DNA of 64,000 nt from an uncultured archaeon. GTDB lineage: Archaea > Asgardarchaeota > Thorarchaeia > Thorarchaeales > Thorarchaeaceae. Below are positions 9,022-24,619 of this stretch, piece by piece. Every line of letters starts with the position of its first letter. Positions within the stretch are counted from its first letter, which is position 1. The translations under genes and the position numbers were made by a program. The DNA lies in the NCBI GenBank assembly GCA_964558645.1, contig CAZLEV010000001.1, forward strand, positions 93,568 to 157,567. Reading direction: 5' to 3'. The notes under the pieces are model-generated. The model was not told where the DNA came from, did not search any database, and saw nothing but the letters and a program-made list of their open reading frames with translations.

Positions 9022-9030
9022 GAGGCGCCA

Positions 9031-10389
9031 ATGATGATTGATGAGAATGAACTACTCGCCCTTTGTGATCATGCAGTTGCCTTTGGAATGGCGAAAGGCG
9101 TTGATCAAATAGAAGTTCAGGCGCAGTTCAAGTCAGAACTGGAGACCGAGGTAGAGCAGGGCGAGGTCAGCAGTGTGAATCGAATCATGGGTAGTGAGAT
9201 TGCAGTCCGTGTGTTTCTCGATAAACGGATGGGTTCTGCATTCACAAACATTGCGACAAAGGGATCAGTGGCCGAAACAGTATCGCTGGCCATTAAGGCC
9301 TCCCAGTCTCTAAGCCCTGACGAAGATTTCGTTTCGCTTTCGAAGCCCTCCAGCTATCGAAAAGTCGAGGGATTGTGGGACGGGTCGGTTCTGAAGGCTG
9401 ACCCGGGCAGCGTGGTAAAGGACGTTGTCGAGATTGTTAGAATGGGGGCATCTCACGAGGGGCTCGTTCCTGCTATGGCGAGCTCAGGAGCCAATGCATA
9501 CCTTATTGCATATGCCAATAGCAACGGAGTACGCCATGCGGAGAAGACGAGCATAGGTTATGGGTTCCTGGCCGCTATTGCCAAGACCGAGAGTGGAGTT
9601 ACACCCATGGTCTTTGCAGTAGATATCGGTCGTGACCTCGCCATAGACAAGGAGAAGATTGTCAATGAGGTGGCCGACACACTATCCATTTGCAGGAACG
9701 AAGTAACCGGAAGGTCAGGCCGTCACGTGACAATCTTCCACCCTCGAGCTCTACTACAGCTTCTCCAAAATACTCTGGTCCCTTCTATCAAAGGCGAGAA
9801 TGTTGCAAGAGGCAAATCAAGGATTGCTGATAAGATTGGAGAGCAGATTGCATCGGAGAACATCACACTCCATGATGATGGAATCCATCCTGAGGGGGTT
9901 GGTTCTTCAGTTGCGGATGCCGAGGGTGTGGCCCGACAGAAGACAACAGTCATCGACAATGGAGTTTTGAAATCCTTCCTATGGGACACCTACTGGGCCC
10001 ATAAGATGGGCGTTCAGACCACAGGAAATGCCTCAAGAAACATGCGTCAGGGTCTCGTAGAGATTGAACCGACAAACATTGTCATTGAACCTGGAACCAG
10101 AGAGATTGATGAGATAATCTCTGGGATTGAGTACGGTTTCTATGTTCAGAATGTGCAAGGAGCGCACAGTGCCAATCCTGAGTCAGGGGATTTCAGCGTC
10201 GTTGGGAATCCAGCTATTCTTATCGAAAACGGCAAGAGAGTGGGGCAGGTTCACGGCCTGATGGTATCTGGCAATATGTTCGATATGTTGAAACAAACAA
10301 AGGAAGTCGCCAAGACCCCTCACTACTTGCAGGGTATCATCGCACCAGAGATTGTCTTCGCTGATATTTCGATTGTTACGAAGGAGTAG
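9031..10389 (+). CDS. pmbA: PmbA/TldE non-catalytic partner
   Basis: DAEGV, TTGNASR, HSANPESGDFSV; no HExxxH; 9 nt downstream of tldD. Confidence 0.9.
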   Translation: MMIDENELLALCDHAVAFGMAKGVDQIEVQAQFKSELETEVEQGEVSSVNRIMGSEIAVRVFLDKRMGSAFTNIATKGSVAETVSLAIKASQSLSPDEDFVSLSKPSSYRKVEGLWDGSVLKADPGSVVKDVVEIVRMGASHEGLVPAMASSGANAYLIAYANSNGVRHAEKTSIGYGFLAAIAKTESGVTPMVFAVDIGRDLAIDKEKIVNEVADTLSICRNEVTGRSGRHVTIFHPRALLQLLQNTLVPSIKGENVARGKSRIADKIGEQIASENITLHDDGIHPEGVGSSVADAEGVARQKTTVIDNGVLKSFLWDTYWAHKMGVQTTGNASRNMRQGLVEIEPTNIVIEPGTREIDEIISGIEYGFYVQNVQGAHSANPESGDFSVVGNPAILIENGKRVGQVHGLMVSGNMFDMLKQTKEVAKTPHYLQGIIAPEIVFADISIVTKE

Positions 10390-10513
10390 AAAGGTGCGGG
10401 AGGTCGTGACAAAGGACCAGTATCTCCATCCTTTGGCTTTTCTGCACACAAAGCATATCAATTATAGACATACCACGTTAGAGTTGCCAAGAAAGACCTG
10501 AGGTTCTCGTACC

Positions 10514-13500
10514 TTGAAGCGTACATTGATGATCATCATTCTTCTTACTGCGATGGCGTTCCCTGCTGCTTTCAGCACTGCAGAACGATGGCAAAACCCA
10601 CTTTCCTATGACTACGTGGCGGCTTCGCTCCGGATGGAGTTGGGTGTCGTGCAGGAAACCAGATCCTCTACGACGTACGAGTACAGGGATGTACTTCTTC
10701 ACTTCGCGGATGAGTTAAGCCCTCACGAGCTTTCATCAATACAAGATAGCGGAGTAGATTTCCTCCATCGTGGAGGTGAGCCTATTCACGTGGGTGGCTT
10801 TTATCGTGCGAGGATTGACCGCTTAGAATCACTGAGAGCGGCTCGTGATTTTGGGCTCCTGAGGGTCTCTTCTGGCTCCAAGCAGTTCTATCCCTCCCTG
10901 GCTTCATCTGTTCCGGCAACCAGAGCTCCTGATGTCTGGAACAATCTCAACACGGATGGGGTGGCAATTGATGGGAATGGAACTCTTGTGGCTGTTATCG
11001 ATACTGGTGCCTCATGGTTACATCCCTCATTCTGGCGTGTAACAGGAGGACCGTATGAAGTGATTCAAGATGGTTCTCACTTCTATGTGGACCTCAACGG
11101 GGATGGGGAGCCGGGAGTCGGTGAGGGGCCGATAAGAGTCGTTCACGCTCAGAACCCCTCAACCATAGAGGCCTCAAATGAATACCTCTACATCGATGTC
11201 AACAACAACGGGGTGTTCGATTATGGAGATGGTGACCGATGGCTCTGCGGTGTAGACTCGAATCAAGATGGCATCATCGATCTGCCGTCTGAGGATGTAG
11301 TACTCCTGAATGAGAGTAAGGTCTCTCTGTTCTACGACCAGTATTCCGGTGACGTCTATCAGCGAGGAGTGAACTTGACCTCTGGTGCGCTTAGCGTAGG
11401 CGACACGCACGGCCACGGCACTCACGTTGCTTCCACCATTGCAGGTGGTCAACCTGGGTACAGCCAGATGTTGGGGGCAGCCCCGGGTGCCGACCTGATA
11501 ATCGTAAGAAGTCCACTGCAGTCCAGCGACATCATCGACGGTATCCACTTTGCCCTCGCGAATGATGCTGATGTCATCAACATGTCGTTTTCCAGCTTTC
11601 TCGGTTTCATGGACGGGACCGATGTGGAAGACCTAGCCGTCAACGAGGCCTTGCGAAGATACGGTACTATATCGACATTAGCGGCTGGGAATCTTGCTGG
11701 AAGGTCCAAGCATGCCAGCTTTACCGTGACAGGTGGAGGGAATGGTTCTGCGATGTTCTCCGTACAGAATCCGCCGGATTACTCGTTTCTCAACATACTC
11801 TGGCACAGCGCTGATCGAGATGAAGAGATAGTCCTCACGACTCCCGGTGATGAAGAGATAAACCTGGGACGCTTCTCGGACATAGATGGAATGAGTTACG
11901 AGCTTGTAGAGTCAGAGATTCGAGCATACATCTTTCCAGATACGAGTATTCGGGGGACAAACCAGATAATCATCCAGGTTTCAGACGAAGAACATCGGTG
12001 GGATAGCGGTATCTGGCAACTGACCGTCATCAATAGCGCGGGGGAGCCAGTTCGAGTCGACGCTTATGCTTGGGATAACAGCTGGGATGGCTCAAATCTC
12101 AGATTCACTTCCCAGATAGATAACAGCCGCACGGTGAGCTCGCCCGGAACCGCCGATTTGGGAATCACTGTGGCTGCATATGATGAATCAACGGAACAGA
12201 TCTCATCAAGCTCGGGCCGGGGTCCCAGAATAGATGGCGTTCCAAAACCGGACGTTGCGGCGCCAGGAGCATCCATCCTGGCTGCAAGAAACAGCATCTC
12301 AAGCCTCTGGTTCTCGAGAAGTGGTACAAGCATGGCGGCACCCCATGTTGCAGGTCTTGTGGCTCTGCTTCAACAGACCTCATCGGATGAGTCTGGCTGG
12401 GAGGCCCTGAGTTCACTACTTCAAGGTGCAGGCGACACCAAGACTCACCATAGCCCACCTGATGACCGCTGGGGATACGGCCTCAGTGACGCCCTATCAG
12501 CTGTCCGCCATCTTCTTCCGCTATCGGCCAATCCAAGTCTTCCGAGTCAGGGATGGGTTGGAATCGAAGAGATATACTCGGGCAATCCAGAAGACGGGAT
12601 TGACGGAGAGCTTGACATTGTTTCTGTACTCGGATATCTGAACACAACTGCCCTTTCACTTGCCGTAGAGACTGCTCAGCCTCCTGATTTTTCCGGCACC
12701 AATACCCTACTTCTCGGGTGGGATTCAGATGGCAATCCCGCTACCGGAGATAATGGAGTGGATTATCGTGTTGAAGTGACTGGTGGTACTAGTCAGGTGT
12801 ATGAGTGGACGGGGTCGGCATTTGAAGAGTCAAGCATCCCGACTCTTGCTTGGAGTATCGGGAACACTCAGTATATCTCTCTGGAGAATCCATCGGCAAC
12901 CCCGGCACGTAACCTCTCAGTTTCAACCCTCAACACATCGGGACTGCAGGACTGGACGGGCTGGCTATCCTTGCAGTATAGATGGCGCCCGGTCGTTAGT
13001 GATTTCTCTCTTGCAGTTTCAGGTTCTGGATACTTGGCTAGCTTCAGTCTTCAGGACTGGGACAGCGATGCCTCTGTTCTTAGCGTTGGTTGGGCCTTGA
13101 GCGATGGTTCCTTCAATGCACTACGCTCCAACACTGTTATGGGAACCAACTCTATCAGCTTGGAAGGTGATTACTCCGAAGAGGACACCTCTGAGGCATT
13201 CAGTTTCATGCTTAATGTGAGCGATTCGGACTCTGTGCTCTACTTGCCACCTGTGATGCTCGTATCCGCTGGAGCTACAAGCATCCAGTTCTCCAATACG
13301 AGTCTGTTGACCAATGAGATTCGGGTGGGTCCGTTTTTCTCCGGGGTAATAAGAGGGAGCTTCAGCTTGGATGGCTATCAACTAGTTGAAGAGATCGAGG
13401 TTTCTTTTGTCAACGAGTTCGGTTTTGCACTGAATTTCTCAGTGCAGGGTTCGAACGGTGACTATTGGTTTGAGATATCTGCTTCGGGTTTCACTGCGGG

Positions 13501-13690
13501 GGTCTACGATGTATACGCAGTTGCGCGGATTGGAACCGGGCAGCGTTACGAGCACAAGTTCGGCACTCTTGCAGTCATTCAGGATTACTCCGCGCTTACG
13601 AGTCTGCTGCTAGTGGTTGGAGCAGGCATAGTTATAATCGTCGTTATCAGAAGAGTCATCTCACCCTCTCATAAGGAGTTATCATCATGA
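10514..13690 (+). CDS. Secreted, C-terminally anchored S8 subtilase (CspA-like, with inserts in the catalytic domain)
   Basis: Signal peptide; triad IDTG / GHGTHVAS / GTSMAAPHVAG; oxyanion AAGN; DxNxDG-type Ca-binding motifs between Asp and His; beta-rich insert between Asn and Ser; C-terminal TM followed by RR. Confidence 0.92.
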   Translation: MKRTLMIIILLTAMAFPAAFSTAERWQNPLSYDYVAASLRMELGVVQETRSSTTYEYRDVLLHFADELSPHELSSIQDSGVDFLHRGGEPIHVGGFYRARIDRLESLRAARDFGLLRVSSGSKQFYPSLASSVPATRAPDVWNNLNTDGVAIDGNGTLVAVIDTGASWLHPSFWRVTGGPYEVIQDGSHFYVDLNGDGEPGVGEGPIRVVHAQNPSTIEASNEYLYIDVNNNGVFDYGDGDRWLCGVDSNQDGIIDLPSEDVVLLNESKVSLFYDQYSGDVYQRGVNLTSGALSVGDTHGHGTHVASTIAGGQPGYSQMLGAAPGADLIIVRSPLQSSDIIDGIHFALANDADVINMSFSSFLGFMDGTDVEDLAVNEALRRYGTISTLAAGNLAGRSKHASFTVTGGGNGSAMFSVQNPPDYSFLNILWHSADRDEEIVLTTPGDEEINLGRFSDIDGMSYELVESEIRAYIFPDTSIRGTNQIIIQVSDEEHRWDSGIWQLTVINSAGEPVRVDAYAWDNSWDGSNLRFTSQIDNSRTVSSPGTADLGITVAAYDESTEQISSSSGRGPRIDGVPKPDVAAPGASILAARNSISSLWFSRSGTSMAAPHVAGLVALLQQTSSDESGWEALSSLLQGAGDTKTHHSPPDDRWGYGLSDALSAVRHLLPLSANPSLPSQGWVGIEEIYSGNPEDGIDGELDIVSVLGYLNTTALSLAVETAQPPDFSGTNTLLLGWDSDGNPATGDNGVDYRVEVTGGTSQVYEWTGSAFEESSIPTLAWSIGNTQYISLENPSATPARNLSVSTLNTSGLQDWTGWLSLQYRWRPVVSDFSLAVSGSGYLASFSLQDWDSDASVLSVGWALSDGSFNALRSNTVMGTNSISLEGDYSEEDTSEAFSFMLNVSDSDSVLYLPPVMLVSAGATSIQFSNTSLLTNEIRVGPFFSGVIRGSFSLDGYQLVEEIEVSFVNEFGFALNFSVQGSNGDYWFEISASGFTAGVYDVYAVARIGTGQRYEHKFGTLAVIQDYSALTSLLLVVGAGIVIIVVIRRVISPSHKELSS

Positions 13691-14970
13691 GAATTGTCGT
13701 TGTTGGTTATGGTCCCGGAGGGGTTTCCGCGGCCAATGCAGCACATATGTTCGCTCAGGATGCTGAGGTTGTTATCATAACCGAGGAAACATCTCCCGCA
13801 CACAGAAAACCGGGGTCCTCACTAGCATTGGAGTATCCTGAAACTGACAGACTCAACATCCCCGACTGGACACCCGAGTCGCTTGAGAAGAAGGGTATTG
13901 AGGTTGTGACCGGCCATCGTGTAGTGTCAGGCGACCTGAAGGACAAGAATATTGTCGTCATTGGTCCAGAGGGTGAAGAGAAGACAATGGGCTATGACAA
14001 ACTGATACTTGCAACGGGCGGGAAGCCCTATGTTCCTGATATTCCAGGCACCGACCTGGAAGGCGTTTACACAATCCAGGATGTTTCAGATGCGTCAAGA
14101 GTGGGTCAGCGTCTGTCTAACATTGAAACCGTGGTTGTAGTGGGCGCGGGATTCAGCGGCCTGGAGGTTGCAGAGCGATTCTTCGAGTTAGGGAAGAGAG
14201 TGCACATCATTGTGCGGTCCCGGCTTCTTCGACGCCTCTTGGAGCCTGAGCTTAGCGAAGAGCTTCAATCTAGAATTCCCTCAGCTATTCGTGTACATCA
14301 GGGCAATACGCCACAGCGGGTTCTCGGCGATACACAGGTTGAGGGACTTGTTGTTGGCGAGAAGACCATCGAGACCCAAGCAGTTCTGTTCATGACGGGT
14401 GTCACTCCAAACACGGAACTCGCACGAGAACTCGGTCTCGATATCGGTGAGCTTGATGGAGTGGTGGTGGATGAAAGGATGCAAACATCGGATGGGGATG
14501 TCTATGCTGTAGGCGACTGTGTTCAGATGCATGATTTCTTGACAGGCGAACCTGTGCTGATGCCCATCGGCAGTGTGGCTGCTCGAGCAGGTCGTCAAGC
14601 TGGTGTTGCTGCCGTTGGAAACAATCGCCTCTACCCGGAAACCAAGCTCAGATTTCAGTACGACCGAATATTCGACACGGACATCGTATGCATGGGCCAT
14701 TCTTCGGAGATAGCAGGCAGGGTTGGCAATGAGGTACGGGTCACTCTTCTTCAGGATGATAGCGAGGCTGCAAAGATTGCGTTGGTTACTGATATGAACG
14801 ACCGCATTGTTGGTGGACAGGTTCTTGCATCAAGGATGGGTCCGAGAATTGGATATCAGATCCTTGCGAGGATGGACGAGGGACTGAAGTTAAGTGAGGC
14901 CCCTCTGCTTGATCCTCGCCATGACCAAATCAAGAGCCTTCTGGAGGAAACACTTGGCCCAATAGACTAG
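13687..14970 (+). CDS. FAD-dependent pyridine nucleotide-disulfide oxidoreductase (NADH oxidase/CoADR-like, lacking the redox Cys)
   Basis: GYGPGG, LATG, GAGFSGLE, TSDGDVYAVGD; ATGA overlap with the upstream S8 gene. Confidence 0.88.
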   Translation: MRIVVVGYGPGGVSAANAAHMFAQDAEVVIITEETSPAHRKPGSSLALEYPETDRLNIPDWTPESLEKKGIEVVTGHRVVSGDLKDKNIVVIGPEGEEKTMGYDKLILATGGKPYVPDIPGTDLEGVYTIQDVSDASRVGQRLSNIETVVVVGAGFSGLEVAERFFELGKRVHIIVRSRLLRRLLEPELSEELQSRIPSAIRVHQGNTPQRVLGDTQVEGLVVGEKTIETQAVLFMTGVTPNTELARELGLDIGELDGVVVDERMQTSDGDVYAVGDCVQMHDFLTGEPVLMPIGSVAARAGRQAGVAAVGNNRLYPETKLRFQYDRIFDTDIVCMGHSSEIAGRVGNEVRVTLLQDDSEAAKIALVTDMNDRIVGGQVLASRMGPRIGYQILARMDEGLKLSEAPLLDPRHDQIKSLLEETLGPID

Positions 14971-14974
14971 GTCG

Positions 14975-17866
14975 CTATTCAATCTCTGGCGGCCTTCCTC
15001 TATCCTCCACCTCAATTTCCCATTCACCATCATCATATCTTCTAGGCCGTTTCTTGCGGCCATATTTGAGATAGGCCACATAGACGATTCCAACTGCAAC
15101 TGTCGCCAAGAAACCTCCTATGACCAGGGTTGAAAACTCCGGGTCAACCGTTTCGGCGGCTACAAGAAAGGTCTTCTTGAACAACTTCACGTTCCCTTCC
15201 GAATCCACGGCTCTGATTGCTATGTCGTAAAAACCCCCTGTTTCAATCACGAAGCTCGATGTGAACTTGTACCCCAGAGACTCAACCATACTGTCGGTGA
15301 CATTCTCGCCACTTGGGCTGGTGATTGTTATTGAGACAGTTTCAAGGTCTTCGTCAAAAATGTACGTTGTGACATTGGCCTCTTCTCCAATCTCTCCTCT
15401 GTTCAGTACTACATCGAATATCCTTGGTCTGGCCGGGATTACGTTTTCAGCGATGTTTCTGAGAAGATTAAGATTGTCTGCTCCTCCTCTGACGGCATCA
15501 TATACCGTGCTATCATAGAGAATGGATCCGTCTGAGACCGCAATCACTTTTCCATTTCCATAGTCAGCCTTAGCGAGCACCGCGTGATTCTTCTCAGAAT
15601 CAATCCAGAATAGTCCTTGTGCACCTGCAACAGAGGGGTCTACACTGAAAGTGCTGCCCATCAGAATATACAAATCCGAAACGCCTACAGTAAGTGGGTC
15701 ATCTTCAACAACTCCGCCGTATGACTCGCCGTAGAACCTGCCCGTGAACTGTGTCATTCCAACACCTATCCCCTTCTCTTCGCACTGAATGCCAACAGGG
15801 GCAAGAATCCTGTTATACGATTCAATGGCAAAACTGGCACTCTGGGTGGTGCTGTCATAGAACTCTGAGAGAATCAGCAGAGTGCCTCCATCCTGGATGA
15901 ACTGGTGGATAGCCTCAACCTCGGCGTCTGTGTAGTATGTTTCGGTGTCCATTATCATGAAGACATCGGACTGTGAGAGGTCTCCATATCGAATTGGAGC
16001 CGCCTCCATTGGATCGGAAAACAGGTCCATGATCACCCCCTTGCCACGCAGGTAGTCTTCAAAGTAGCGATAGTAGGTCGGATCATCTGGATCATCAAGG
16101 GAGTGATGGGACATGTCAACTAACAACCTACCGCCATACGTGGATATAGTGAAATCAATCTCAATGCTACAGGCGGTCACATTGGCTGCAATGAGTTGCA
16201 GACACGCTTGATAGTGGCCCGTCGAACTCAACGGGAGGTCTTGAGGGATCTCAAGGTTGATGCTGAAGTAAGAATAGCCCGCCCGGATGTCAACAGCGTC
16301 TTCTGTCACTATGAAATCGCTTGCATTTCCGTTGATTTGGATTGCTGCCGGTCCAAGATTCACAGTTGAGATGACTGTGACATTCTGTGCCTCACGTTCG
16401 TCTCCAACAATGAGGACTCCGCTGCCCCCAGGCAAGGTCGGATACCTTAGAGGGGCTGCTACAGTGATCATTCGCGACGTATTACTGATAAGCTCAGAGG
16501 ACTTCGAGGCGTTGACAATTCCGTGGCCCTGCGCCATGGCATCTTGTTTCAGGTCTGTGGCTCCCTTCATCAAGTAGCTCTTGATTTCAAGGGGCGTAAG
16601 CCCGGTGTACTGATTCATGAGGAGTGCTGACACTCCTGCCGCCAGTGGTGCAGACACGGAGGTTCCTGACCATTGCGTGTAGAGATCTCCGAACTGGCTG
16701 AAGTTGTAGAGGGGGTATTCGAAAGAGTCTGCGCCATCCCATCGGCCTGACACTACATTGGAGCCGGGCGCCAGGATATCGGGCCTCGTGAATACTCCGG
16801 GCGGATTGGTTATCGTCCTGATGACAGGACCTCTACTGCTAAATGATACGACTCCACTTCCCCCTGAGGATGCTCCAACAGCCACGACTTCCTCTACTAT
16901 TGCAGGAGAGTTGATTGTTTCCGTCGCTGGGCCATCATTTCCTGCAGCAACAAACACCGGCGTGTGTCCCTCTCGTACGGCGGCTCGGGCCGCAAGTGCC
17001 GAAGGATCCACGTAATTCGAGTCACTCCAACTGCCTCCAAGACTCAGACTGATTGCGTCCACACCTTGTTCCACAGCAAACTCTATTCCTTCTGCTATTA
17101 CGGAGTCCTGACCGGAACCAGTCTCATCAAGGACCTTGATAATCAGAAGTTCAGCGCCCGGAGCCATCCCTGTAAATGCCCCATCCATTCCCTCTCCTGA
17201 TCCTGCAATGAGCCATGCACATGCAGTCCCGTGGCCGTTGTCATCATAAGCATCGACGCCGTCAGAAGGATCCATATCATGCTCCTCGTTCACCAAATCC
17301 TGGAAACCTGCAAGTCTGTCAGCCAAGTCGAGATGGTCTCCTTGTACACCACTGTCTAGCACAGCGACTGTAATGCCGGTCCCGTTATACCCTTCATTCC
17401 AGAGCCTTCCAACGTCCATTATCTCATCCGGATGGACATAGCTGACGCCGTTACTCATGCTCAATTCATGAGAATCTGGTCGGGACTCGAAATCGAATGT
17501 TCTGTCAATGTCAACAGCTTCAACTTGAGCAACATCAGCCAACCGATGGATAGCATCTAAATTAGCATATGCAGAAACAACAGGGATGAGACTGAACACA
17601 TGTCGTAAAGTGATGGCGTTCCCAACGTACCCCATCACTAAGTTGGTCATCTCGAGCGAGGTGGTGCCATGTGGGAATCTGGCAACAATCGGAATCAGAC
17701 CGTCCGATGCGGTGGCACTCATCTCTTTCACGAGCATCGGTCCAATCTTCGTACTTATGTTTGCGTTTGTCTTGCCATCAGCTGGTATCACAATCCCCCA
17801 GAGAGGGCCCAAGAATAGCACGACAAGCGTCATGGCAATGATCTGCTTTCGGTTCAAGTTCATCAT
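14975..17866 (-). CDS. Type-I membrane S8 protease with a GATase-like domain; Site-1 protease (MBTPS1/SKI-1)-like
   Basis: Signal peptide, I9-like propeptide, VLDSG / GHGT / GNDGP / SGTSVSAP, QGHG, then a beta domain, a DUF4350/GldG-like alpha-beta domain, a beta domain, a TM helix and a charged tail. Confidence 0.88.
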   Translation of the reverse strand: MMNLNRKQIIAMTLVVLFLGPLWGIVIPADGKTNANISTKIGPMLVKEMSATASDGLIPIVARFPHGTTSLEMTNLVMGYVGNAITLRHVFSLIPVVSAYANLDAIHRLADVAQVEAVDIDRTFDFESRPDSHELSMSNGVSYVHPDEIMDVGRLWNEGYNGTGITVAVLDSGVQGDHLDLADRLAGFQDLVNEEHDMDPSDGVDAYDDNGHGTACAWLIAGSGEGMDGAFTGMAPGAELLIIKVLDETGSGQDSVIAEGIEFAVEQGVDAISLSLGGSWSDSNYVDPSALAARAAVREGHTPVFVAAGNDGPATETINSPAIVEEVVAVGASSGGSGVVSFSSRGPVIRTITNPPGVFTRPDILAPGSNVVSGRWDGADSFEYPLYNFSQFGDLYTQWSGTSVSAPLAAGVSALLMNQYTGLTPLEIKSYLMKGATDLKQDAMAQGHGIVNASKSSELISNTSRMITVAAPLRYPTLPGGSGVLIVGDEREAQNVTVISTVNLGPAAIQINGNASDFIVTEDAVDIRAGYSYFSINLEIPQDLPLSSTGHYQACLQLIAANVTACSIEIDFTISTYGGRLLVDMSHHSLDDPDDPTYYRYFEDYLRGKGVIMDLFSDPMEAAPIRYGDLSQSDVFMIMDTETYYTDAEVEAIHQFIQDGGTLLILSEFYDSTTQSASFAIESYNRILAPVGIQCEEKGIGVGMTQFTGRFYGESYGGVVEDDPLTVGVSDLYILMGSTFSVDPSVAGAQGLFWIDSEKNHAVLAKADYGNGKVIAVSDGSILYDSTVYDAVRGGADNLNLLRNIAENVIPARPRIFDVVLNRGEIGEEANVTTYIFDEDLETVSITITSPSGENVTDSMVESLGYKFTSSFVIETGGFYDIAIRAVDSEGNVKLFKKTFLVAAETVDPEFSTLVIGGFLATVAVGIVYVAYLKYGRKKRPRRYDDGEWEIEVEDRGRPPEIE

Positions 17867-18035: not shown

Positions 18036-18326
18036 ATGGGAAGTAAACCACCGCTATACGAAAGAAGACTCCAGCTGAAGCACTTTTTTGATGATCGAAC
18101 CACCGGGCAGACCCGAAGAACGTGGCTCGAGCTTCAGCTTCAGCCGCCAGAGAAGAGCTCTGAGGGCTGGGTTAATGACGGCAGGATTCGCCTGAGTCTC
18201 GGAGAAGACCGCGATGTAAAGGGATCCTTCCTGCTATCAATAGAGGAGGCGTCTCGGATGTTCAAAGTACTTGAGATGATGTTTGAGGATCATGAGCACC
18301 AGAAGGCTGAACTCTGGAGAGAGTAG
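18036..18326 (+). CDS. Hypothetical protein (96 aa)
   Basis: GGAGATGG upstream; compact pattern of beta-strands plus a C-terminal helix. Confidence 0.75.
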   Translation: MGSKPPLYERRLQLKHFFDDRTTGQTRRTWLELQLQPPEKSSEGWVNDGRIRLSLGEDRDVKGSFLLSIEEASRMFKVLEMMFEDHEHQKAELWRE

Positions 18327-18440
18327 ATCTTCGCTGAAAAGAGCCCTAAACAACTGGTCACCAGCATCTTCTCGTCAAGACCGTTAATCAGGAATAGATT
18401 TATTCAATGATCTCAACTACTACTCCGAGGAGGAAACACC

Positions 18441-19544
18441 TTGGTAGGTATACATCCTGTTCCTAGTCTCGGAGTAAGCGTAGATTCTCAGTTTCCAATG
18501 AGTGATATTCTGGCCGTTATCCCCTATGTGTTGCCGCTTGTCTTTCTCGGAATGATATTTCTTTTCTATCAGCGATATCTACCAAGGGATGAGTTACGAC
18601 GGAATATCCTCGTCTTCGTCGGCATCGTGTTTCAAATCACGGCGTTCCTCATGGTGCTTTACACAGGATTTGGGGCCGTCTGGTGGGGGCCAGATGAATT
18701 GACCTTTGGTTCGTGGTGGTTTCTCATAGGTCTTCTTCAATTTGCCACTGATGTTGTGTTCGGGTCCGTCCTGGCCAGCATGATCTACCTCATCCTGGTA
18801 GTTGTTGCGCTGGGTATTGCCACACATTATGTGATAGCTCCTCCCGATCCTGACTTTGTGGCCCTTCGCGAGGAATTGCGGAATACCCAAGAGGCACTGA
18901 AAAAGGCGGAGGAGGCAGTTAGACAACTCGAAGCTGAAAAGAAACAGCTCACGGAGCAGTTCGCGGAGCGGGAAGACAGCTTCTCAGAGCTCCAGTCTGA
19001 ACTCGAGTCCTTGAAGGCACGAGTTGAGGATGCAGAGGCGGAGAAAGTGAGTCTGGCAAAGCAGCTCGAGGAAGCACCGGGGGTCGGCGTCGAGCGTGAA
19101 CAGCAGCTTGTTGCTGAGATAGCCAAGAAGGATGAGACCATCCAATCCCTTCAGTCTGAGATAGACGATCTTCGCCTTGTTGTTGAATCCCGGCCAACTG
19201 CCGTGGTTGATTCTGAACAGATCTCTAGTTTGGAGTCAGAGCTGAAGACAGCAAAGGCAACATTGGTAGACGTCGCTCGACGCGCAGAGACTGCATCTGA
19301 GGTGTCTGATAGCGTCATATCTGACTTGGCTGAATTAATCTCTACAATCGAGGGAAGCGGCCTGGATCCGTCTGCAAAGATCGCTTTGACAAGTCTGGTC
19401 AAAGGACTTGGTAGGGCAATGGGGCGTGTCTCGCGACCAGATGATGGTAAAGCACCAGATACCCGTGTTGAGATGATCGGGGCCGTCATGATGGTGCACG
19501 AGATTGTGGATGGAATCAAGAAGCTGGTCCGCTCAACCAAATGA
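18441..19544 (+). CDS. Membrane protein with 3-4 N-terminal TM helices and a long coiled coil
   Basis: GGAGG SD before TTG; hydrophobic N-terminal third; E/K/Q/L heptad region ~aa 138-285; helical C-terminal domain. Confidence 0.8.
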   Translation: MVGIHPVPSLGVSVDSQFPMSDILAVIPYVLPLVFLGMIFLFYQRYLPRDELRRNILVFVGIVFQITAFLMVLYTGFGAVWWGPDELTFGSWWFLIGLLQFATDVVFGSVLASMIYLILVVVALGIATHYVIAPPDPDFVALREELRNTQEALKKAEEAVRQLEAEKKQLTEQFAEREDSFSELQSELESLKARVEDAEAEKVSLAKQLEEAPGVGVEREQQLVAEIAKKDETIQSLQSEIDDLRLVVESRPTAVVDSEQISSLESELKTAKATLVDVARRAETASEVSDSVISDLAELISTIEGSGLDPSAKIALTSLVKGLGRAMGRVSRPDDGKAPDTRVEMIGAVMMVHEIVDGIKKLVRSTK

Positions 19545-19669
19545 TTGTCGGGCCTTTACTTCAGATTTATGCGTTCACTCGGAAGATGGAAGGTTTGGAT
19601 TGACAAACGCTTTCAGTCGTAATGCTTAATAGACCCATGCCAAGTTGTTTGGTTAATCACACACGATCT

Positions 19670-19800
19670 TAGAGAACGCGATTTGAGGAGATATTCCTGT
19701 TGCGCTGGAGGAGAGTTGCAGCAGGCTTCGGAGGTTTGTTAGCAGTCGCAAGTAGAGTGTCCATATGACACCTTCTCTGCGTTGCTTGCCTCGTTCTCTA
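19670..19800 (+). ncRNA. Putative structured 5' leader (three-way junction) of the large S8 gene
   Basis: TAGAGAACG(19670-78)/CGTTCTCTA(19792-800) closes two hairpins: CCTGTTGC/GCAGCAGG (19696-725) and AGCAG-CGCA...GTGTC-catat-GACAC...TGCG-TTGCT (19741-786). Confidence 0.45.
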
Positions 19801-19828
19801 TGTCAACTTGTGAGGAGAAAGAGTAAAA

Positions 19829-22800
19829 ATGAGTAAAAAGCGAACTGTAGCAGTTCTGTTATTTCTGGCTGCCCTGAGCATGTCTATGCTTATGGCACCA
19901 GTAGGCCCGATGGCCAGCACAGAATCTGCCAGCCCGCCAGCGCTCACTCCAGATGTCCAGGATCAGGTGGACGAGTGGTATAAGACCCTCGAACAGCCTG
20001 GCTACCAGGCCACAGTCGACTCTGTGTTGGCTGAATGGAGTAGGAGCGGCGTGCTGAGCGACAGGGTCGTGACCAGACCTGACGGCGCCGTGAGTGCGCT
20101 TGTCTTTATGGCCCCATGGGTCGATATGACAGCCGTACGCGACGTTGTTGAGGTAAAATGGTCAGTAGACCTGAAGGCAATGAGGACCGCTCTGGTCAAC
20201 GTGCCTGGTGTCGATGCTCTCGAGGCACTGAGAGCAATCGATGGTGTTGGTGGAATCGAGGCCGATCAGTATAGGTTTGAGCGACCAGATGAACTGGTCA
20301 AGAACTTGGACAAGCTTGAGAACCCAGGTATCGGGGTTGATATGTACAAGATCAAGGAAGTTGTGAAGGCTGATGACAGCACACTCTACGCCGGCCAATA
20401 CAACGGTAGCGGAGTAGTTGTCGGTCATCTTGACACAGGAATGGACTATGGCAATCCTGAGCTGGAGCACACCCTTGATGCAATCAATCACGGTGCTTAC
20501 GACCCAAGTGGTGATGGGCTGGTTCCAACGTTCTATCACGCAAACTCCACTCCAGTCAACGTGACCGAGTGGACAGCAGACCCCTATAACCTTCTGACCT
20601 ACGTGGATGACGACGGCTTCGTCTACCTCGATGTCGAGGGTTGGGATCCCATGGTCAACTCGTACTACTATCCAGGATATCTGATTGGCAATGATGATCA
20701 TGCTGGCTGGTTGTACTACTATTCCAATGCATGGGGTGTCGAGGGAGTCCAAGATGTCTTCGAGAACTATGTCTGGAAGGACATCAAACTACCCAATGCA
20801 TCGGCACTTGCCACTGGTACCAACTACTCAGTTGGTTTCATCATGCAGCAGCGATGGTCTCCGATGAGCATGATATTCGGTCCTGCTCTTGTCTACGAAG
20901 ACACTGGCAACGAGAAGAACGTCATTGTTGGCTGGGAGGACACTCTCGGCTGGAACAAGCTCTGGTCTGGTGCCATCTGGTACGAGGCTATCGATCTCAC
21001 GGACATCTACGACGCATATGATGTTGTCACCACATTCGACAACAGCTTCTATGATGAGTGGGACGAAGGAGAGATCTACAACCTTGATAACCCGATTGTG
21101 AACAAGGACTTCAGCGGCGACGGTATTGCCGACTTCAGCCTTGGTGCACTTGGCTGGTGTTACGACGACCATGGTTGGTTTGACAATGAGATCCTCTTCA
21201 ACGGTATCAGGAGCGATGGTGACGCCTTCGCACTGTACTTTGACGATGGCACTCACGGTACTGCAACCGCTTCACATGTTGCAGGTGCAGGCAAGCTGAC
21301 CTATGAACATGCAGAGGAAGGCTTCGGCACAACTGAGTTCACCATGGAAGGTATCGCACCTGGTGCAAAGATCCAGTCAGTCAGACTGATCACTCATGGT
21401 GGATCCTACGGCTCGTATCTATGGGTCTGTGGTTTCCATTGGAATGAGACCAGTGGTGAGTGGTACTACCTAGGTGAGCATGAAACTGACCTCGTGACCA
21501 ACTCTTGGGGTTGGATAACCGAACCAGCAAGTGAGATGAACTATCTCGCGCTGACCTGGAACATCCTGTCAAGTCCTGGCTTCCTCGATGCGACCTATAA
21601 CGGCGTCCTGCACGTATTCTCAGCAGGCAACGAGGGTTCAGGATTCATGACGATTGGTCCGCCCGGCGCAGCACACGGTGTCCTTACTGTTGGTGCCTCT
21701 ACTAGCAGTCACTGGCTTGAGTACCTCTATGGCCCGACACAGCCCTACGAGGGTCTGGCATCCTTCACAAGCAAGGGACCGGCCTATTCTGGCTATGTCA
21801 AGCCCGATGTACTCGCACCTGGTCTTGCAGGCTACGCAGCCGTGCCCTGGTTTGCACAGTACATGGCTGCAGATGGTTACTGGCTCGCTAGCGAAGCAGA
21901 ATACACGCTGTTCTCTGGTACTAGTCAGGCAGCCCCCGTTGTAGCGGGTGTTGCAGCACTCGTCTACGAGGCGATGGGCGGAGCTCATGCGACCCCGTTC
22001 GAGGCAAAGATGATTCTCCAGTCAACCGCTGACGACTTGGGTTATGACCCGGCGAGTCAGGGCTTTGGGAGAGTCAATGCAGATGCAGCTTGTGCATTCG
22101 CAGAAGGAACTGCTGGTGCAGTATCATACAACATCGACTCGTGGAACAACATTGCAGCAATCCTAGCTAACCCATGGAAGAAATGGGGTACAACCGGAAC
22201 TCCGGCCAACAAGAGCCTGGACTACCCAACAGACTTCTGGGATGGTTCGCTCTTCTTCGGTCATTTGTATCCGGGTGAGAGTGCCACAATCCATCAGAAC
22301 GTCCACACTGACTTCTTTGGAACCCGTGTTGCATTCGGCGCCATGAGCTCGTTCGATGCATACACGATGGTCGAGGCCGAAACATTCACGTTCACCGACA
22401 CGACGTTTGTATATTCAGACGACAACGTGACGGGAGATCTAGCATACGGTTACCACATGCTGAGTGACCTTATTGGTGTTGACTACGACACGGCCGCTTC
22501 GACCTACAAGTACATCACCATCGGCGTATCATTCGATGCTGCTGATGTTGCTGGTGCAGAGCCATGGATGTTCCTCTATGACTGGGAAGACAACAATGTC
22601 ACTGATGGCTATCCGAACCTCTGGAACGGAACCCACGGTGATGAACTGCATCGTCTGACCAGCGCGAGCGACCCGAGTAACACCAACATGATGTCTTGGG
22701 CCACCACAGATGCGAACATCAATGCCGCACTCCTAGGTGACCTGACGTTGGTCATCCATGATCCTGTGTTCGATGCCAATGAGACAGCTAGCCTACTTGG

Positions 22801-24619
22801 CCTAGTTGACGGCAACGAGTTCACAGCCACTGTGATCTTCTGGCAAGAGGTCGACGCATCTGCTTCGATCACCTTCGCGGATGGTGGAGCGGAGCACACT
22901 GTGAACATCACAATGGATGTTCCCGCTGGTACCGATGCTGGTATCCATCAGGGATTCGTTGTGTTGACCTACGGAACTGACGTCCTGAGGATTCCTTGGA
23001 GCGTCATGGTCAAGGCACAGATTGCAGTTGGAAAGGACACCGCACAGACCATCGTTGATGGCTTTGGTGATGCCCTATCACCCTACGACATGCCGATGTA
23101 CGGCTGCATGGATTCTGACCCAGACGACTGGGACTTCAGAACCATCGTTCTGAACATCCCCGAGGCTGGAGAGAACGCTACCTACCTCGGTGTACGTGTT
23201 ATCTGGCCTGAAGGCGGAAACAACATGTACGTCGATGTACGCGATGAGAACGCAACATCTCTTGCTGCTGGTGCCGACGGCACTGCAACAACTACTGCGA
23301 TTCTTGCTGCTTTGCCAGCCGACCCAGTTGGTGACTACTACCTCTTCATGCATGCGCTCGCTGTGAACGGTACAACGTTCCTACCTGCGAACTACAGCGT
23401 CGAAGTGATGTGGTACGAAGAGCTAACCACTCAGGATCTCCAGTTCACCTGGACATCCAACGATAAGCCCAGTCCGTCAACTATCACGGACGGCGACACC
23501 CTTGTGGGCGATCACGTAGTGGTCAATGCTTCCTACCCAGAGTTCAACCTGCCGGCAATGCCCGAGTACGAGGTTGACTCAGTCGGGATCTCGTTCCTGT
23601 CTGGTCTCTACCATGTGGGCACAGGACCCCTTGTCATTCCGGACGCCAACTACGATCCATTCTCAGGTGTGATTGATCTTGATCAGTTTGCTTGGGAGTA
23701 CGTGGAAGGTATCAACGCGGGCGACACAGTCAAGGTGACTGCTGACTTCACGAACGGCGACTGTGACATCATGGCATGGTGGGCTGACACCGACAACAGC
23801 ACATGGACCTACGCGAACAACATTCTGGGCTCTCAGATGGCCACTGGTGCCAAACCTGAGAAGGGCTCGTTTGTTGCAACTAGGTCGGGTGCGGTCATGT
23901 TCGGTATCTTCGACTACGATCTGCAAGAGGGTACATACACACTGACAGTAGACACTCGAGTTGGTGTATCAGCAACTGGTACTCCCGATGAGGTAACCTA
24001 CGACACGTATACGTTCCTGAAGAACGGTAGCTTCTCAGTGCAGGTTGAGGCGACGACCAAGACCAACATTGGATTCGAGGTCAACTACTTAGAGCTGAGA
24101 TTCGAGAACTTCTTCTCGCCAGTAGTCTCTGACGTAGAAGTCACTGGTACTGGCACGACGAAGAACATCACGTGGACAGCCTCCGACCTGAACGCAGGTG
24201 ACGATCTCTACTTCGAGCTCTATCTGTCTCAGGACTCGGGAACGACCTATCAGCTCGTAGCTGTGAACCTCACTGAGACCTTCTACCTCTGGGATTCATC
24301 CGAGTTCATCGAACGGGACACCTACAGGATTCGGGTCATTGTCTTTGACAACGATCCTAATGAGAATCCAACTGTAGGTCCCAATGACTACTGGATGGGT
24401 CTGACTGACTCTGCGGAGTCTGAGGTGTTCAGTGCAGGCGGAGTCGAGCCAACAACCACTACGACTACCACAACTACGACCACCACAACCACTACAACCA
24501 CAACCACAACCACGGAAGAGCCCCCAGTGGGTATCGATCCGTTGTGGATTGGTCTGATTGGCGGTATTGGTGTCGGTGTTGTTGTCGTGTTGATACTCTT
24601 CCTTGTGAAGAAGAAGTAG
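19829..24619 (+). CDS. Large cell-surface S8 protease (pyrolysin/STABLE-like) with Thr-rich stalk and C-terminal anchor
   Basis: Signal peptide; HLDTG, HGTATASH, SAGNEG, GTSQAAPVVAG; many NxS/T sequons; poly-Thr, TM, KKK terminus; GAGGAG SD. Confidence 0.92.
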   Translation: MSKKRTVAVLLFLAALSMSMLMAPVGPMASTESASPPALTPDVQDQVDEWYKTLEQPGYQATVDSVLAEWSRSGVLSDRVVTRPDGAVSALVFMAPWVDMTAVRDVVEVKWSVDLKAMRTALVNVPGVDALEALRAIDGVGGIEADQYRFERPDELVKNLDKLENPGIGVDMYKIKEVVKADDSTLYAGQYNGSGVVVGHLDTGMDYGNPELEHTLDAINHGAYDPSGDGLVPTFYHANSTPVNVTEWTADPYNLLTYVDDDGFVYLDVEGWDPMVNSYYYPGYLIGNDDHAGWLYYYSNAWGVEGVQDVFENYVWKDIKLPNASALATGTNYSVGFIMQQRWSPMSMIFGPALVYEDTGNEKNVIVGWEDTLGWNKLWSGAIWYEAIDLTDIYDAYDVVTTFDNSFYDEWDEGEIYNLDNPIVNKDFSGDGIADFSLGALGWCYDDHGWFDNEILFNGIRSDGDAFALYFDDGTHGTATASHVAGAGKLTYEHAEEGFGTTEFTMEGIAPGAKIQSVRLITHGGSYGSYLWVCGFHWNETSGEWYYLGEHETDLVTNSWGWITEPASEMNYLALTWNILSSPGFLDATYNGVLHVFSAGNEGSGFMTIGPPGAAHGVLTVGASTSSHWLEYLYGPTQPYEGLASFTSKGPAYSGYVKPDVLAPGLAGYAAVPWFAQYMAADGYWLASEAEYTLFSGTSQAAPVVAGVAALVYEAMGGAHATPFEAKMILQSTADDLGYDPASQGFGRVNADAACAFAEGTAGAVSYNIDSWNNIAAILANPWKKWGTTGTPANKSLDYPTDFWDGSLFFGHLYPGESATIHQNVHTDFFGTRVAFGAMSSFDAYTMVEAETFTFTDTTFVYSDDNVTGDLAYGYHMLSDLIGVDYDTAASTYKYITIGVSFDAADVAGAEPWMFLYDWEDNNVTDGYPNLWNGTHGDELHRLTSASDPSNTNMMSWATTDANINAALLGDLTLVIHDPVFDANETASLLGLVDGNEFTATVIFWQEVDASASITFADGGAEHTVNITMDVPAGTDAGIHQGFVVLTYGTDVLRIPWSVMVKAQIAVGKDTAQTIVDGFGDALSPYDMPMYGCMDSDPDDWDFRTIVLNIPEAGENATYLGVRVIWPEGGNNMYVDVRDENATSLAAGADGTATTTAILAALPADPVGDYYLFMHALAVNGTTFLPANYSVEVMWYEELTTQDLQFTWTSNDKPSPSTITDGDTLVGDHVVVNASYPEFNLPAMPEYEVDSVGISFLSGLYHVGTGPLVIPDANYDPFSGVIDLDQFAWEYVEGINAGDTVKVTADFTNGDCDIMAWWADTDNSTWTYANNILGSQMATGAKPEKGSFVATRSGAVMFGIFDYDLQEGTYTLTVDTRVGVSATGTPDEVTYDTYTFLKNGSFSVQVEATTKTNIGFEVNYLELRFENFFSPVVSDVEVTGTGTTKNITWTASDLNAGDDLYFELYLSQDSGTTYQLVAVNLTETFYLWDSSEFIERDTYRIRVIVFDNDPNENPTVGPNDYWMGLTDSAESEVFSAGGVEPTTTTTTTTTTTTTTTTTTTTTEEPPVGIDPLWIGLIGGIGVGVVVVLILFLVKKK
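24452..24514 (+). repeat. 21-codon poly-threonine tract (ACN repeat), probable glycosylated stalk
   Basis: ACA ACC ACT ACG... in frame just before the TM anchor; third positions are mixed. Confidence 0.9.

What the first reader, a model, noticed from the sequence alone, without database searches (positions are those of the whole stretch)
14975..17866. Candidate archaeal counterpart of eukaryotic Site-1 protease (MBTPS1/SKI-1)
Seen: signal peptide, propeptide, S8 domain, beta domain, GATase-like domain, TM helix and cytoplasmic tail. Motifs: LWNEGYNGTGITVAVLDSG, GNDGPATETINSPA, FSSRG, SGTSVSAP (Val rather than the usual Met after the catalytic Ser), QGHG, RLLVDMSH, MIMDTETYYTDAEVEAIHQFIQDGGTLLILSEFYD, GKVIAVSDGSILYD. 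From memory, unverified, S1P has the same domain order and LWQMGYTG..VAVFDTG, GNDGPLYGTLNNPA, FSSRG, SGTSVASP, QGHG, RVLWDQYH, LMVDSEEEYFPEEI...GLSLVIFSDWYN, GRIVLYGDSNCLDD. The similarity extends beyond the protease domain, which suggests orthology. Inference: the first step of SREBP/ATF6-type regulated proteolysis may have an Asgard precursor. No S2P (M50) gene is in this window.
Basis: partly seen in the sequence, partly recalled or inferred. Interest (0 to 1): 0.82.

Follow-up and report, generated by a model that had tools for sequence, protein, structure and literature searches.

The report
Thorarchaeal membrane subtilase, S1P-like build
This Thorarchaeota gene encodes an apparently active, membrane-anchored subtilisin-type protease with the same domain order as the eukaryotic site-1 protease, but it is a distant cousin: a different Asgard branch, in Heimdall/Hod archaea, is the one that groups with the eukaryotic enzyme.

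Summary
Window 14975-17866 (-) is one intact 963-aa ORF. It reads signal peptide, I9-like propeptide, S8 domain with an invariant D171/H212/N310/S403, beta-sandwich, GIFT (GATase1-like) domain, Ig-like domain, TM helix and a short conserved tail. It is a single-copy core gene of its Thorarchaeota family (68 of 86 genomes) and sits in a conserved protease island.

The architecture matches S1P: S1P is the top whole-chain Foldseek, ESM-Atlas fold and language-model neighbour. Profile comparison supports homology for the S8 domain and the N-terminal half of GIFT.

Specific orthology of this gene is not supported.
- Its S8 domain is closest to Tk-SP.
- Its GIFT domain is closer to IFT52 than to S1P.
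- It matches no MBTPS1_3rd model, and MBTPS1_4th stays below threshold.
- S1P's best hit in this genome is another subtilase.
- An AU test rejects S1P plus this clade (p = 0.011).

S1P instead groups (UFBoot 97 / SH-aLRT 78) with an 820-850-aa S8-GIFT-TM subfamily. That subfamily was found in only one Asgard group, whose members NCBI labels Heimdallarchaeota or Hodarchaeota, and it is absent from this genome.

Likely function: a glycosylated cell-surface protease for protein scavenging or surface-protein processing. No RIP role is shown.

This scan has already reported the same kind of protein in at least 36 genomes.

The parts
14975..17866 (-). Whole gene, 963 aa plus stop: membrane-anchored S8-beta-GIFT-Ig-TM subtilase (P0001)
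   Evidence: about 110 full-length homologues at 47-76% identity, nearly all labelled Thorarchaeota
17777..17866 (-). Signal peptide region (about residues 1-30): hydrophobic helix 2-24, then IPADG
   Evidence: sequence; helix in the model; the cleavage site is inferred, not predicted by a tool
17492..17749 (-). Propeptide, residues 40-125, beta-alpha-beta-beta-alpha-beta (I9-like). It is followed by a disordered linker 126-144 (pLDDT under 50), the likely autoprocessing region
   Evidence: aligned with the Tk-SP propeptide in 3afg (model 36-567); hhalign against the S1P prodomains is only marginal (P 0.012)
16472..17434 (-). Peptidase S8 domain, residues 145-465, with catalytic D171, H212 and S403 and oxyanion N310
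   Evidence: Pfam 5e-53; all four residues invariant in 44 homologues; best solved relative Tk-SP (E 1.5e-44; Z 45)
16139..16465 (-). Beta-sandwich domain, residues 468-576, in the position of S1P's P-like subdomain and of the Tk-SP beta-jelly roll
   Evidence: no sequence-profile similarity to the S1P P-like domain (P 0.055)
15434..16132 (-). GIFT / GATase1-like domain, residues 579-811, with conserved D584, H587, D640 and E649
   Evidence: DUF4350 31.3 bits; profile against IFT52 2e-14 and against S1P 2e-9; VIA-align Z 21.9 to IFT52, 18.9 to OST48, 17.8 to S1P; hhalign against S1P GIFT P 2e-13
15158..15427 (-). Ig-like beta domain, residues 814-903, between GIFT and the membrane. It has no detectable counterpart in S1P
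   Evidence: own HMM recovers it in relatives; hhalign against S1P finds nothing
15062..15142 (-). Transmembrane helix, residues 909-935
14978..15061 (-). Cytoplasmic tail, residues 936-963: a basic stretch, then the conserved EWE(I/V)PV...PPEI(E/V)
   Evidence: W949, P959, P960 and I962 invariant or nearly so
7633..14970 (+). Conserved neighbours on one side: TldD and PmbA metallopeptidases (7633-9021, 9031-10389), a 1058-aa S8 protease (10514-13690) and an FAD oxidoreductase (13687-14970)
   Evidence: Pfam; the same order in two other Thorarchaeota genomes
18036..24619 (+). Conserved divergent neighbours: a 96-aa soluble protein (18036-18326), a membrane plus coiled-coil protein (18441-19544) and a 1596-aa S8 protease (19829-24619)
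   Evidence: the 96-aa and coiled-coil genes lie beside the orthologue in both other Thorarchaeota genomes, while the large S8 protease is seen in one of them only

Best explanation
The gene encodes an active type-I membrane-anchored subtilase. The following steps are inferred from family knowledge. It is made as a pre-pro-enzyme and exported by its signal peptide. It folds with the help of its I9-like propeptide and cuts the propeptide off in the disordered linker (residues 126-144). It then stays tethered to the cell surface by the C-terminal helix, with an N-glycosylated ectodomain (S8, beta-sandwich, GIFT, Ig) outside and a short conserved tail inside.

It belongs to a large Asgard superfamily of S8-beta-GIFT-TM proteases. 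This superfamily shares the body plan of eukaryotic site-1 protease and, most likely, common ancestry with it. Within the superfamily this gene is an out-paralogue of S1P, not its counterpart: the S1P-like branch is an 820-850-aa subfamily of Heimdall/Hod archaea that this genome lacks.

The gene is single-copy and conserved, and it sits in a conserved island with two other large subtilases and TldD/PmbA peptidases. The genome holds about 15 subtilase ORFs. Its most likely job is therefore pericellular proteolysis, meaning protein scavenging and/or maturation of surface proteins. A first cut in a regulated intramembrane proteolysis pathway is less likely.

The GIFT domain probably acts as a non-catalytic module packed beside the protease, possibly binding a metal through its conserved Asp/His/Asp/Glu cluster. 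That last point is inference.
For: Shown:
- Intact ORF with an invariant catalytic tetrad, S8 at 5e-53 and a confident model (pLDDT 85).
- Ten N-X-S/T sequons, all between residues 36 and 855, against 5.3 +/- 2.1 in shuffles (27 of 1000 shuffles reach 10).
- Single copy in 68 of 86 genomes of the same GTDB family, in 22 of 23 high-quality genomes and in all 16 genera.
- Synteny with TldD/PmbA and the 1058-aa S8 protease is kept at about 50% protein identity in two other genomes; the 1596-aa S8 protease is seen in one of them.
- About 15 ORFs with an S8 match, at least five of them with a GIFT domain (two lie on duplicated contigs), plus nine GIFT-only ORFs in this genome.

Superfamily:
- An exhaustive phmmer search of the C-terminal half finds many S8-beta-GIFT-TM proteins of 800-1310 aa. 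The named ones are Asgard.
- The C-terminal modules of the Heimdall type and the Thor type are homologous (hhalign 3e-29).

Link to S1P:
- S1P is the top Foldseek PDB hit over 778 columns, and also for beta+GIFT alone (4.5e-15).
- S1P is the top ESM-Atlas fold neighbour (TM 0.51, 583 aligned residues) and fills language-model ranks 2-10.
- hhalign: S8 2.6e-59; GIFT N-terminal half P 2e-13.

Not the orthologue:
- Tk-SP scores 1.5e-44 against 1e-18 for S1P.
- S1P's hit to P0001 ranks third in the own genome, 58 bits against 79.8 for the best.
- In the careful trees the P0001 clade lies outside the clade that holds S1P (98/89). S1P plus the Heimdall type gets 97/78.
- The AU test rejects S1P plus the P0001 clade (p 0.011, delta lnL 81).
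- The Heimdall protein has S1P as its top PDB sequence hit (2.6e-29, next best 5.5e-22) and TM 0.71 over 674 residues. That subfamily is found in 18 of 22 genomes of one group and in 0 of 85 Thor genomes.
Against: - Function is inferred from context only. No substrate, expression or activity data exist.
- A strictly conserved single-copy gene with a conserved cytoplasmic tail could fit a specific processing role better than bulk digestion.
- The S8 trees have limited outgroups: no kexins, plant pyrolysin-type subtilases or TPPII, and only a few bacteria.
- S1P and the Heimdall clade both sit on long stems (1.37 and 1.17 changes per site), so long-branch attraction is possible. Support of 97/78 falls just short of the tool's star, and in the first careful tree the same join had only 65/19.
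- The AU test used LG+F+G4, because the mixture-model test did not finish.
- Beta-sandwich against P-like domain shows no sequence signal, so three-domain homology is not proven.
Confidence: 0.7

Rival explanations
1. One reading: this gene is the archaeal orthologue of S1P and makes the first cut in an SREBP/ATF6-type regulated proteolysis pathway.
For: Same domain order. S1P is the nearest whole-chain neighbour by fold and by language model. The GIFT N-terminal half is homologous. Conserved single-copy gene with a conserved cytoplasmic tail. M50 proteases exist in the genome.
Against: The S8 domain is closer to Tk-SP and to many subtilisins than to S1P. There is no reciprocal best hit. The AU test rejects S1P plus this clade (p 0.011). 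A different Asgard subfamily groups with S1P. MBTPS1_4th scores 18 bits, below its cut-off, and MBTPS1_3rd gives no hit. The Val after the catalytic Ser and the QGHG string are not family traits. M50 is universal (14 of 14 controls). No candidate substrate lies nearby. The P4-Arg contacts named for S1P (D218, Q282, S307; PMC11231238) are either generic subtilase residues or not conserved: Q282 aligns with Gly.
Confidence: 0.07
2. Convergence: the S8 and GIFT domains were fused independently in Asgard archaea and in the eukaryotic stem, so the likeness to S1P is analogy of architecture rather than descent.
For: GIFT domains are abundant and mobile in this genome: nine GIFT-only ORFs, and S8-GIFT paralogues with GIFT at quite different positions (424-666, 750-857, 1062-1250). 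The Asgard GIFT profile hits IFT52 more strongly and over its full length (2e-14), but S1P only over about 107 of its 350 profile positions (2e-9). Rigid-body Z is 21.9 for IFT52 against 17.8 for S1P. The beta-sandwich shows no sequence signal against the P-like domain. No Asgard genome of 400 has more than 36 bits to MBTPS1_4th. Deep S8 nodes are mostly unresolved.
Against: There is one colinear profile alignment from S8 through GIFT (Heimdall type 113-742 against S1P 190-853). The whole ectodomain superposes as one body (TM 0.71 over 674 residues). The S8 domain, analysed alone, nests S1P among Asgard S8-GIFT proteases (91/83) and next to the Heimdall type (97/78). Independent fusions would not predict this.
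Confidence: 0.18
3. Specific sheddase or maturase: the enzyme processes one or a few surface or membrane proteins (for example S-layer or adhesin precursors, or the neighbouring giant subtilases) rather than digesting food protein.
For: Strict single-copy conservation across 16 genera. Conserved tail motif EWE(I/V)PV...PPEI(E/V). Conserved neighbourhood with two large secreted subtilases, which may themselves need processing. S1P and the proprotein convertases are precedents for membrane-tethered subtilases acting as processing enzymes (established knowledge).
Against: There is no direct evidence. The S8 domain resembles broad-specificity enzymes such as Tk-SP and subtilisin. The co-located TldD/PmbA peptidases fit catabolism.
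Confidence: 0.25

Closest known systems
Eukaryotic site-1 protease (MBTPS1 / S1P / SKI-1; plant SBT6.1; PDB 8UW8, 8UWC, 9CSD; PMC11231238)
   Same: Signal peptide, prodomain, S8 domain, beta-sandwich, GIFT domain, one TM helix and a short tail, in the same order. The S8 domain and the GIFT N-terminal half are homologous at profile level. S1P is the best whole-chain structural neighbour. The Asp/His/Asp/Glu positions of GIFT are shared (D584, H587, D640, E649 against S1P WDQYH and VDSEEEYFPEE).
   Different: Only about 19-22% identity. The S8 domain is not nearest to S1P, and the tree separates them. There is no MBTPS1_3rd match. The GIFT domain is compact (233 aa against about 380) and more like IFT52. 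There is an extra Ig-like domain before the membrane. The propeptide is a single unit of about 85 aa, not A+B prodomains. The tail carries an acidic/Pro motif as well as a basic stretch. No SPRING, SREBP or ATF6 context is known.
Heimdall/Hod-type S8-beta-GIFT-TM protease (e.g. L040 1120-3588 = P0480, NCBI UCE12602.1, labelled Candidatus Heimdallarchaeota)
   Same: Same superfamily and architecture. The C-terminal module is homologous (hhalign 3e-29).
   Different: It is shorter (819-849 aa), has no Ig-like domain and has a 6-aa basic tail. Its S8 domain carries S1P-like strings (RGTLNNPA). S1P is its top solved sequence relative, its fold matches S1P at TM 0.71 and it is sister to S1P in the tree (97/78). 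It lies in a Ras-like GTPase operon. It is absent from Thorarchaeota.
Tk-SP, subtilisin-like protease of Thermococcus kodakarensis (PDB 3AFG, 9UES)
   Same: Closest solved relative of the propeptide, S8 domain and following beta domain: E 1.5e-44; Z 43.6-45, 30-34% identity, model residues 36-567 aligned.
   Different: Tk-SP ends after the beta-jelly-roll domain. It has no GIFT domain, Ig domain or membrane anchor.
GIFT domains of IFT52 and OST48 (PDB 5FMS, 5FMR, 6S7O)
   Same: Best single-domain matches of residues 579-811: profile E 2e-14 over the full domain; Z 21.9 and 18.9.
   Different: Those proteins carry no protease. IFT52 lacks the Asp/His/Asp positions kept in the Asgard proteins and in S1P.

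Membership tests
Peptidase S8 (subtilases) | Asp-His-Ser triad in that order plus the oxyanion Asn, and a match to the S8 profile | tested here: met
   PF00082 5e-53; D171, H212, N310 and S403 invariant in 44 homologues
S1P / MBTPS1 orthologous group | Domain order SP, prodomain, S8, beta-sandwich, GIFT, TM, short tail | tested here: met
   (with an extra Ig-like domain)
S1P / MBTPS1 orthologous group | S8 domain groups with eukaryotic S1P in a phylogeny | tested here: not met
   The P0001 clade lies outside the S1P-containing clade (98/89). The AU test rejects the join (p 0.011). Outgroup sampling was limited.
S1P / MBTPS1 orthologous group | Reciprocal best hit between S1P and this gene within the genome | tested here: not met
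   S1P's best hit in the own genome is C13:72933 (79.8 bits). P0001 ranks third at 58 bits. P0001's best solved hit is Tk-SP.
S1P / MBTPS1 orthologous group | Match to Pfam MBTPS1_3rd (PF23094, P-like domain) and MBTPS1_4th (PF23090) above the gathering score | tested here: not met
   No MBTPS1_3rd hit at E 0.1. MBTPS1_4th scores 18.2 bits against a cut-off of 27, over 74 of 275 positions. hhalign of the beta domain against the P-like domain gives P 0.055.
S1P / MBTPS1 orthologous group | Cleavage after R-x-(hydrophobic)-(L/K/T), with stepwise A/B prodomain autoprocessing | not testable with these tools
   There is no conserved RxxL in the linker 121-145 of the family consensus. The P4 contact Q282 is not conserved.
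GIFT domain (IFT52 / OST48 / S1P / GldG; Pfam DUF4350, ABC_transp_aux, IFT52_GIFT) | GATase1-like fold with the GIFT sequence profile | tested here: met
   DUF4350 31.3 bits, above the 30.4 cut-off; IFT52 2e-14; Z 21.9 over 205 residues at rmsd 2.7
Asgard S8-beta-GIFT-TM protease superfamily (defined in this report) | S8 domain followed by a homologous beta+GIFT module and a C-terminal TM helix | tested here: met
Tk-SP-like subtilases | Propeptide, S8 domain and C-terminal beta-jelly roll as the whole protein | tested here: not met
   The core matches (Z 45), but 400 further residues (GIFT, Ig, TM) follow.

The most novel reading that the evidence does not exclude
Eukaryotic S1P descends from the Asgard S8-beta-GIFT-TM protease superfamily to which this gene belongs, through the Heimdall/Hod branch. 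In that branch the protease is already coupled to a Ras-like GTPase operon. The Thorarchaeal gene would then be a surviving out-paralogue showing the ancestral, pre-signalling state of the enzyme.
Probability: 0.45. Interest if true: 0.72.

Novelty: new variant of a known kind. Interest (0 to 1): 0.5.

Why it matters
S1P is the gatekeeper of SREBP, ATF6 and many other eukaryotic signalling routes, and its origin is not discussed in the literature I could search. No paper in the held library mentions Asgard together with site-1 protease, and the single paper holding both 'Asgard' and 'MBTPS1' is an unrelated fish-feed study.

Asgard archaea carry a whole radiation of proteases with the S1P body plan, and S1P's catalytic domain nests among them, next to a Heimdall/Hod subfamily. 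This gives a concrete, testable candidate for the archaeal root of a eukaryotic secretory-pathway enzyme.

For this particular gene the lesson is cautionary. A shared architecture and a few matching motifs made a paralogue look like the orthologue.

The gene itself is a conserved surface protease of Thorarchaeota. It is relevant to how these sediment archaea handle extracellular protein.

Tried and rejected
- Single-sequence searches with the C-terminal half did not reach any eukaryotic S1P: 99 hits, none of S1P grade.
- The search for homologous proteins with the full protein was saturated by Thorarchaeota homologues.
- To get S1P sequences for trees, I used a 75-residue piece of S1P exactly as printed as a query. 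I then used the S8 region of a retrieved S1P with 'shorter' lengths. That list was saturated by S1P fragments, so it gave plant, insect and cnidarian S1P but no non-S1P outgroups.
- The search for related loci with the S1P S8 alignment used only two patterns and returned nine bacterial subtilases at 27-37% identity. No close prokaryotic S1P was found.
- MBTPS1_4th searched over 400 Asgard genomes gave at most 36 bits, over the first 100 or so positions.
- treekit's AU test under the mixture model did not finish in three runs. I replaced it with IQ-TREE LG+F+G4.
- The presence of M50 (S2P) was checked and set aside as uninformative.
- The S1P P4-pocket residues were mapped but are uninformative.
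- A pseudo-enzyme reading was rejected because the tetrad is invariant.
The topology comparison with the S1P P-like domain is therefore open.
- Whether bacteria or non-Asgard archaea have S8-beta-GIFT proteins could not be tested with the tools at hand.
Full report
**What is there.** The minus-strand ORF 14975-17866 is intact and encodes 963 residues. Pfam finds Peptidase_S8 at 162-444 (5e-53) and DUF4350 at 599-783 (31.3 bits, cut-off 30.4). Over the first third of the second domain there are sub-threshold hits to ABC_transp_aux, MBTPS1_4th (18.2 bits) and IFT52_GIFT. An AlphaFold2 model built on 44 homologues (pLDDT 85, pTM 0.76) resolves these parts:
- signal helix 2-24
- I9-like propeptide 40-125
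- disordered linker 126-144
- S8 domain 145-465
- beta-sandwich 468-576
- GATase1-like (GIFT) domain 579-811
- Ig-like domain 814-903
- TM helix 909-935
- 28-residue tail

D171, H212, N310 and S403 are invariant across the family. Ten N-X-S/T sequons all lie in the predicted ectodomain, against 5.3 +/- 2.1 in shuffles. The S1P strings it recalled from memory are also right, as printed by tools.

**Who has it.** About 110 full-length homologues at 47-76% identity are almost all labelled Thorarchaeota. After them the scores fall straight to generic subtilases. In the window's GTDB family the gene is single-copy in 68 of 86 genomes, in 22 of 23 high-quality genomes and in all 16 genera. Most of the neighbourhood is conserved in two other Thorarchaeota genomes at about 50% protein identity: TldD, PmbA, a 1058-aa subtilase and an FAD oxidoreductase on one side; a 96-aa protein and a membrane coiled-coil protein on the other. 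The 1596-aa subtilase beyond them appears in only one of the two genomes. The genome holds about 15 ORFs with an S8 match, at least five of them also with a GIFT domain at varying positions (two lie on duplicated contigs), plus nine GIFT-only ORFs.

**Likeness to S1P.** According to PMC11231238, S1P consists of a signal peptide, A and B prodomains, an S8 domain (D218, H249, N338, S414), a P-like beta-sandwich (479-616), a GIFT subdomain (617-998), a TM helix and a tail. The order is the same here.
- S1P (9CSD, 8UW8) is the top Foldseek hit of the whole model (E 4e-38, 778 columns).
- It is also the top hit of the beta+GIFT model alone (4.5e-15, 427 columns).
- It is the top ESM-Atlas fold neighbour (TM 0.51, 583 residues).
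- Nine S1P clusters follow the protein's own cluster in language-model space (0.93-0.94).
- Domain-by-domain hhalign between 34 Asgard S8-GIFT proteins and an S1P alignment gives: S8 2.6e-59; GIFT P 2e-13 over the N-terminal half; propeptide marginal (0.012); beta-sandwich against P-like not significant (0.055); Ig-like domain nothing.

Homology beyond the protease domain is therefore real for GIFT. It is unproven for the beta-sandwich.

**Why it is not the S1P counterpart.**
- The S8 domain's closest solved relative is Tk-SP (1.5e-44; Z 45 including the beta domain). S1P stands at 1e-18, behind dozens of subtilisins.
- A profile of the Asgard beta+GIFT module hits IFT52 over the whole GIFT domain (2e-14). 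It hits S1P only over about 107 of its 350 profile positions (2e-9).
- In an unbiased structural search, IFT52 (Z 21.9) and OST48 (18.9) precede S1P (17.8).
- No genome among 400 Asgard genomes scores above 36 bits against MBTPS1_4th.
- In the window's own genome, S1P's best hit is a GIFT-less 769-aa subtilase (79.8 bits). This gene ranks third (58 bits).

**Trees.** I obtained eukaryotic S1P sequences (animals, plants and unnamed metagenomic sequences, possibly from protists) by querying with a 75-residue S1P segment printed. The S8 tree included these groups:
- S1P
- Thor-type and other Asgard S8-GIFT proteins
- the best Asgard hits of an S1P S8 profile
- the own genome's paralogues
- bacterial subtilases

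In the careful LG+C20 tree of 81 rows, S1P (100/99) lies in a poorly resolved radiation made mostly of Asgard S8-GIFT proteases. The clade holding this gene is excluded from it by a 98/89 branch. An AU test (LG+F+G4) rejects S1P plus this clade (delta lnL 81, p 0.011). It does not reject S1P plus the Heimdall type. With ten Heimdall-type sequences added, S1P plus the nine from the Heimdall/Hod group gets 97/78. The next well-supported shell is Asgard S8-GIFT only (91/83).

Caveats: both partners sit on long stems, the outgroups are few, and support falls just short of the tool's star.

**The better candidate.** The Heimdall-type protein (L040 1120-3588, 822 aa; NCBI label Candidatus Heimdallarchaeota, with relatives labelled Hodarchaeota and B3_Heim) has the same architecture, without the Ig domain and with a 6-residue basic tail.
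- S1P is its top solved sequence relative (2.6e-29 against 5.5e-22 for the next). The alignment runs past the S8 domain.
- Its Atlas model superposes on an S1P cluster at TM 0.71 over 674 residues, against about 0.5 for all other rows.
- One colinear profile alignment links residues 113-742 to S1P 190-853.
- The subfamily is found in 18 of 22 genomes of one group and in no Thorarchaeota genome.
- In three genomes it is the last gene of a tight cluster: GT2 glycosyltransferase, Ras-family GTPase (4e-42), a 290-aa unknown protein, then the protease.

**Function.** The following is inference. The enzyme is exported, self-activates by propeptide removal and remains on the cell surface as a glycoprotein. 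Its Tk-SP-like catalytic domain, the surrounding protease island and the many paralogues make pericellular proteolysis for protein scavenging or surface-protein maturation the most likely role. A specific processing role remains possible, given the strict single-copy conservation and the conserved tail EWE(I/V)PV...PPEI(E/V).

The conserved D584, H587, D640 and E649 of GIFT align with S1P's WDQYH and VDSEEEYFPEE. The S1P paper reports a putative calcium ion in an acidic pocket of GIFT near the protease interface. A similar structural metal site here is a guess worth testing.

**Prior knowledge.** I found no paper in the held library that links S1P to Asgard archaea. Within this scan the same kind of protein has been reported many times: 49 notes in at least 36 genomes. 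Those follow-ups reached the same 'built like S1P, descent not shown' verdict. Other first readers also noted the Heimdall-type gene and its GTPase operon.
- a phylogeny that includes S1P
- the rejection of orthology for the Thor-type gene
- the identification of the Heimdall/Hod subfamily as the branch that groups with S1P

Noticed in passing
L064 3452-8343; L065 3232-8224; L066 5403-10413 (Heimdall-type genomes G065, G067, G059): The S1P-like 819-826-aa protease is the last gene of a conserved, tightly spaced cluster: GT2 glycosyltransferase, Ras-family small GTPase (Pfam Ras 4e-42), a 288-298-aa protein with no Pfam family, then the protease. A cytoplasmic GTPase coupled to an S1P-like ectoprotease in the archaea nearest to eukaryotes deserves its own follow-up.
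   Followed up: partly
whole genome G000 (for example C1:174120-176123, C14:17240-19198, C31:5245-8136, C11:25416-29819): The genome carries about 15 ORFs with an S8 match. At least five have a GIFT domain at different positions, and there are nine GIFT-only ORFs. GIFT is a heavily reused extracellular module in this archaeon.
   Followed up: partly
G000 C9:133432-137835 and C11:25416-29819; also C9:109383-111362 and C11:1367-3346: Two pairs of subtilase ORFs on contigs C9 and C11 have the same length and identical domain coordinates and scores. This suggests a duplicated or redundantly assembled region (genome contamination estimate 6.3%).
   Followed up: no
window 14978-15061 (residues 936-963): The cytoplasmic tail keeps a basic stretch and then EWE(I/V)PV...PPEI(E/V) across the family (W949, P959, P960, I962). 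This looks like a docking motif for an unknown cytoplasmic partner.
   Followed up: partly
window 15434-16132 (GIFT domain): In an unbiased search of about 48,000 solved chains, the five best matches of the Asgard GIFT domain are all eukaryotic GIFT proteins (IFT52, OST48/Wbp1, S1P). They rank ahead of the bacterial STM3548 and ThuA-like proteins.
   Followed up: partly
window 18036-19544: A 96-aa soluble protein and a protein with N-terminal TM helices plus a long coiled coil are transcribed divergently from the protease. They keep this position in two other Thorarchaeota genomes. Their function is unknown.
   Followed up: partly
proteins P0279, P0420, P0408, P0439 (S1P S8 domains): The S8 domain of S1P is 65-70% identical between mammals and plants, yet only about 30% identical to any Asgard protein. 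Almost all of the divergence therefore lies on the eukaryotic stem.
   Followed up: no
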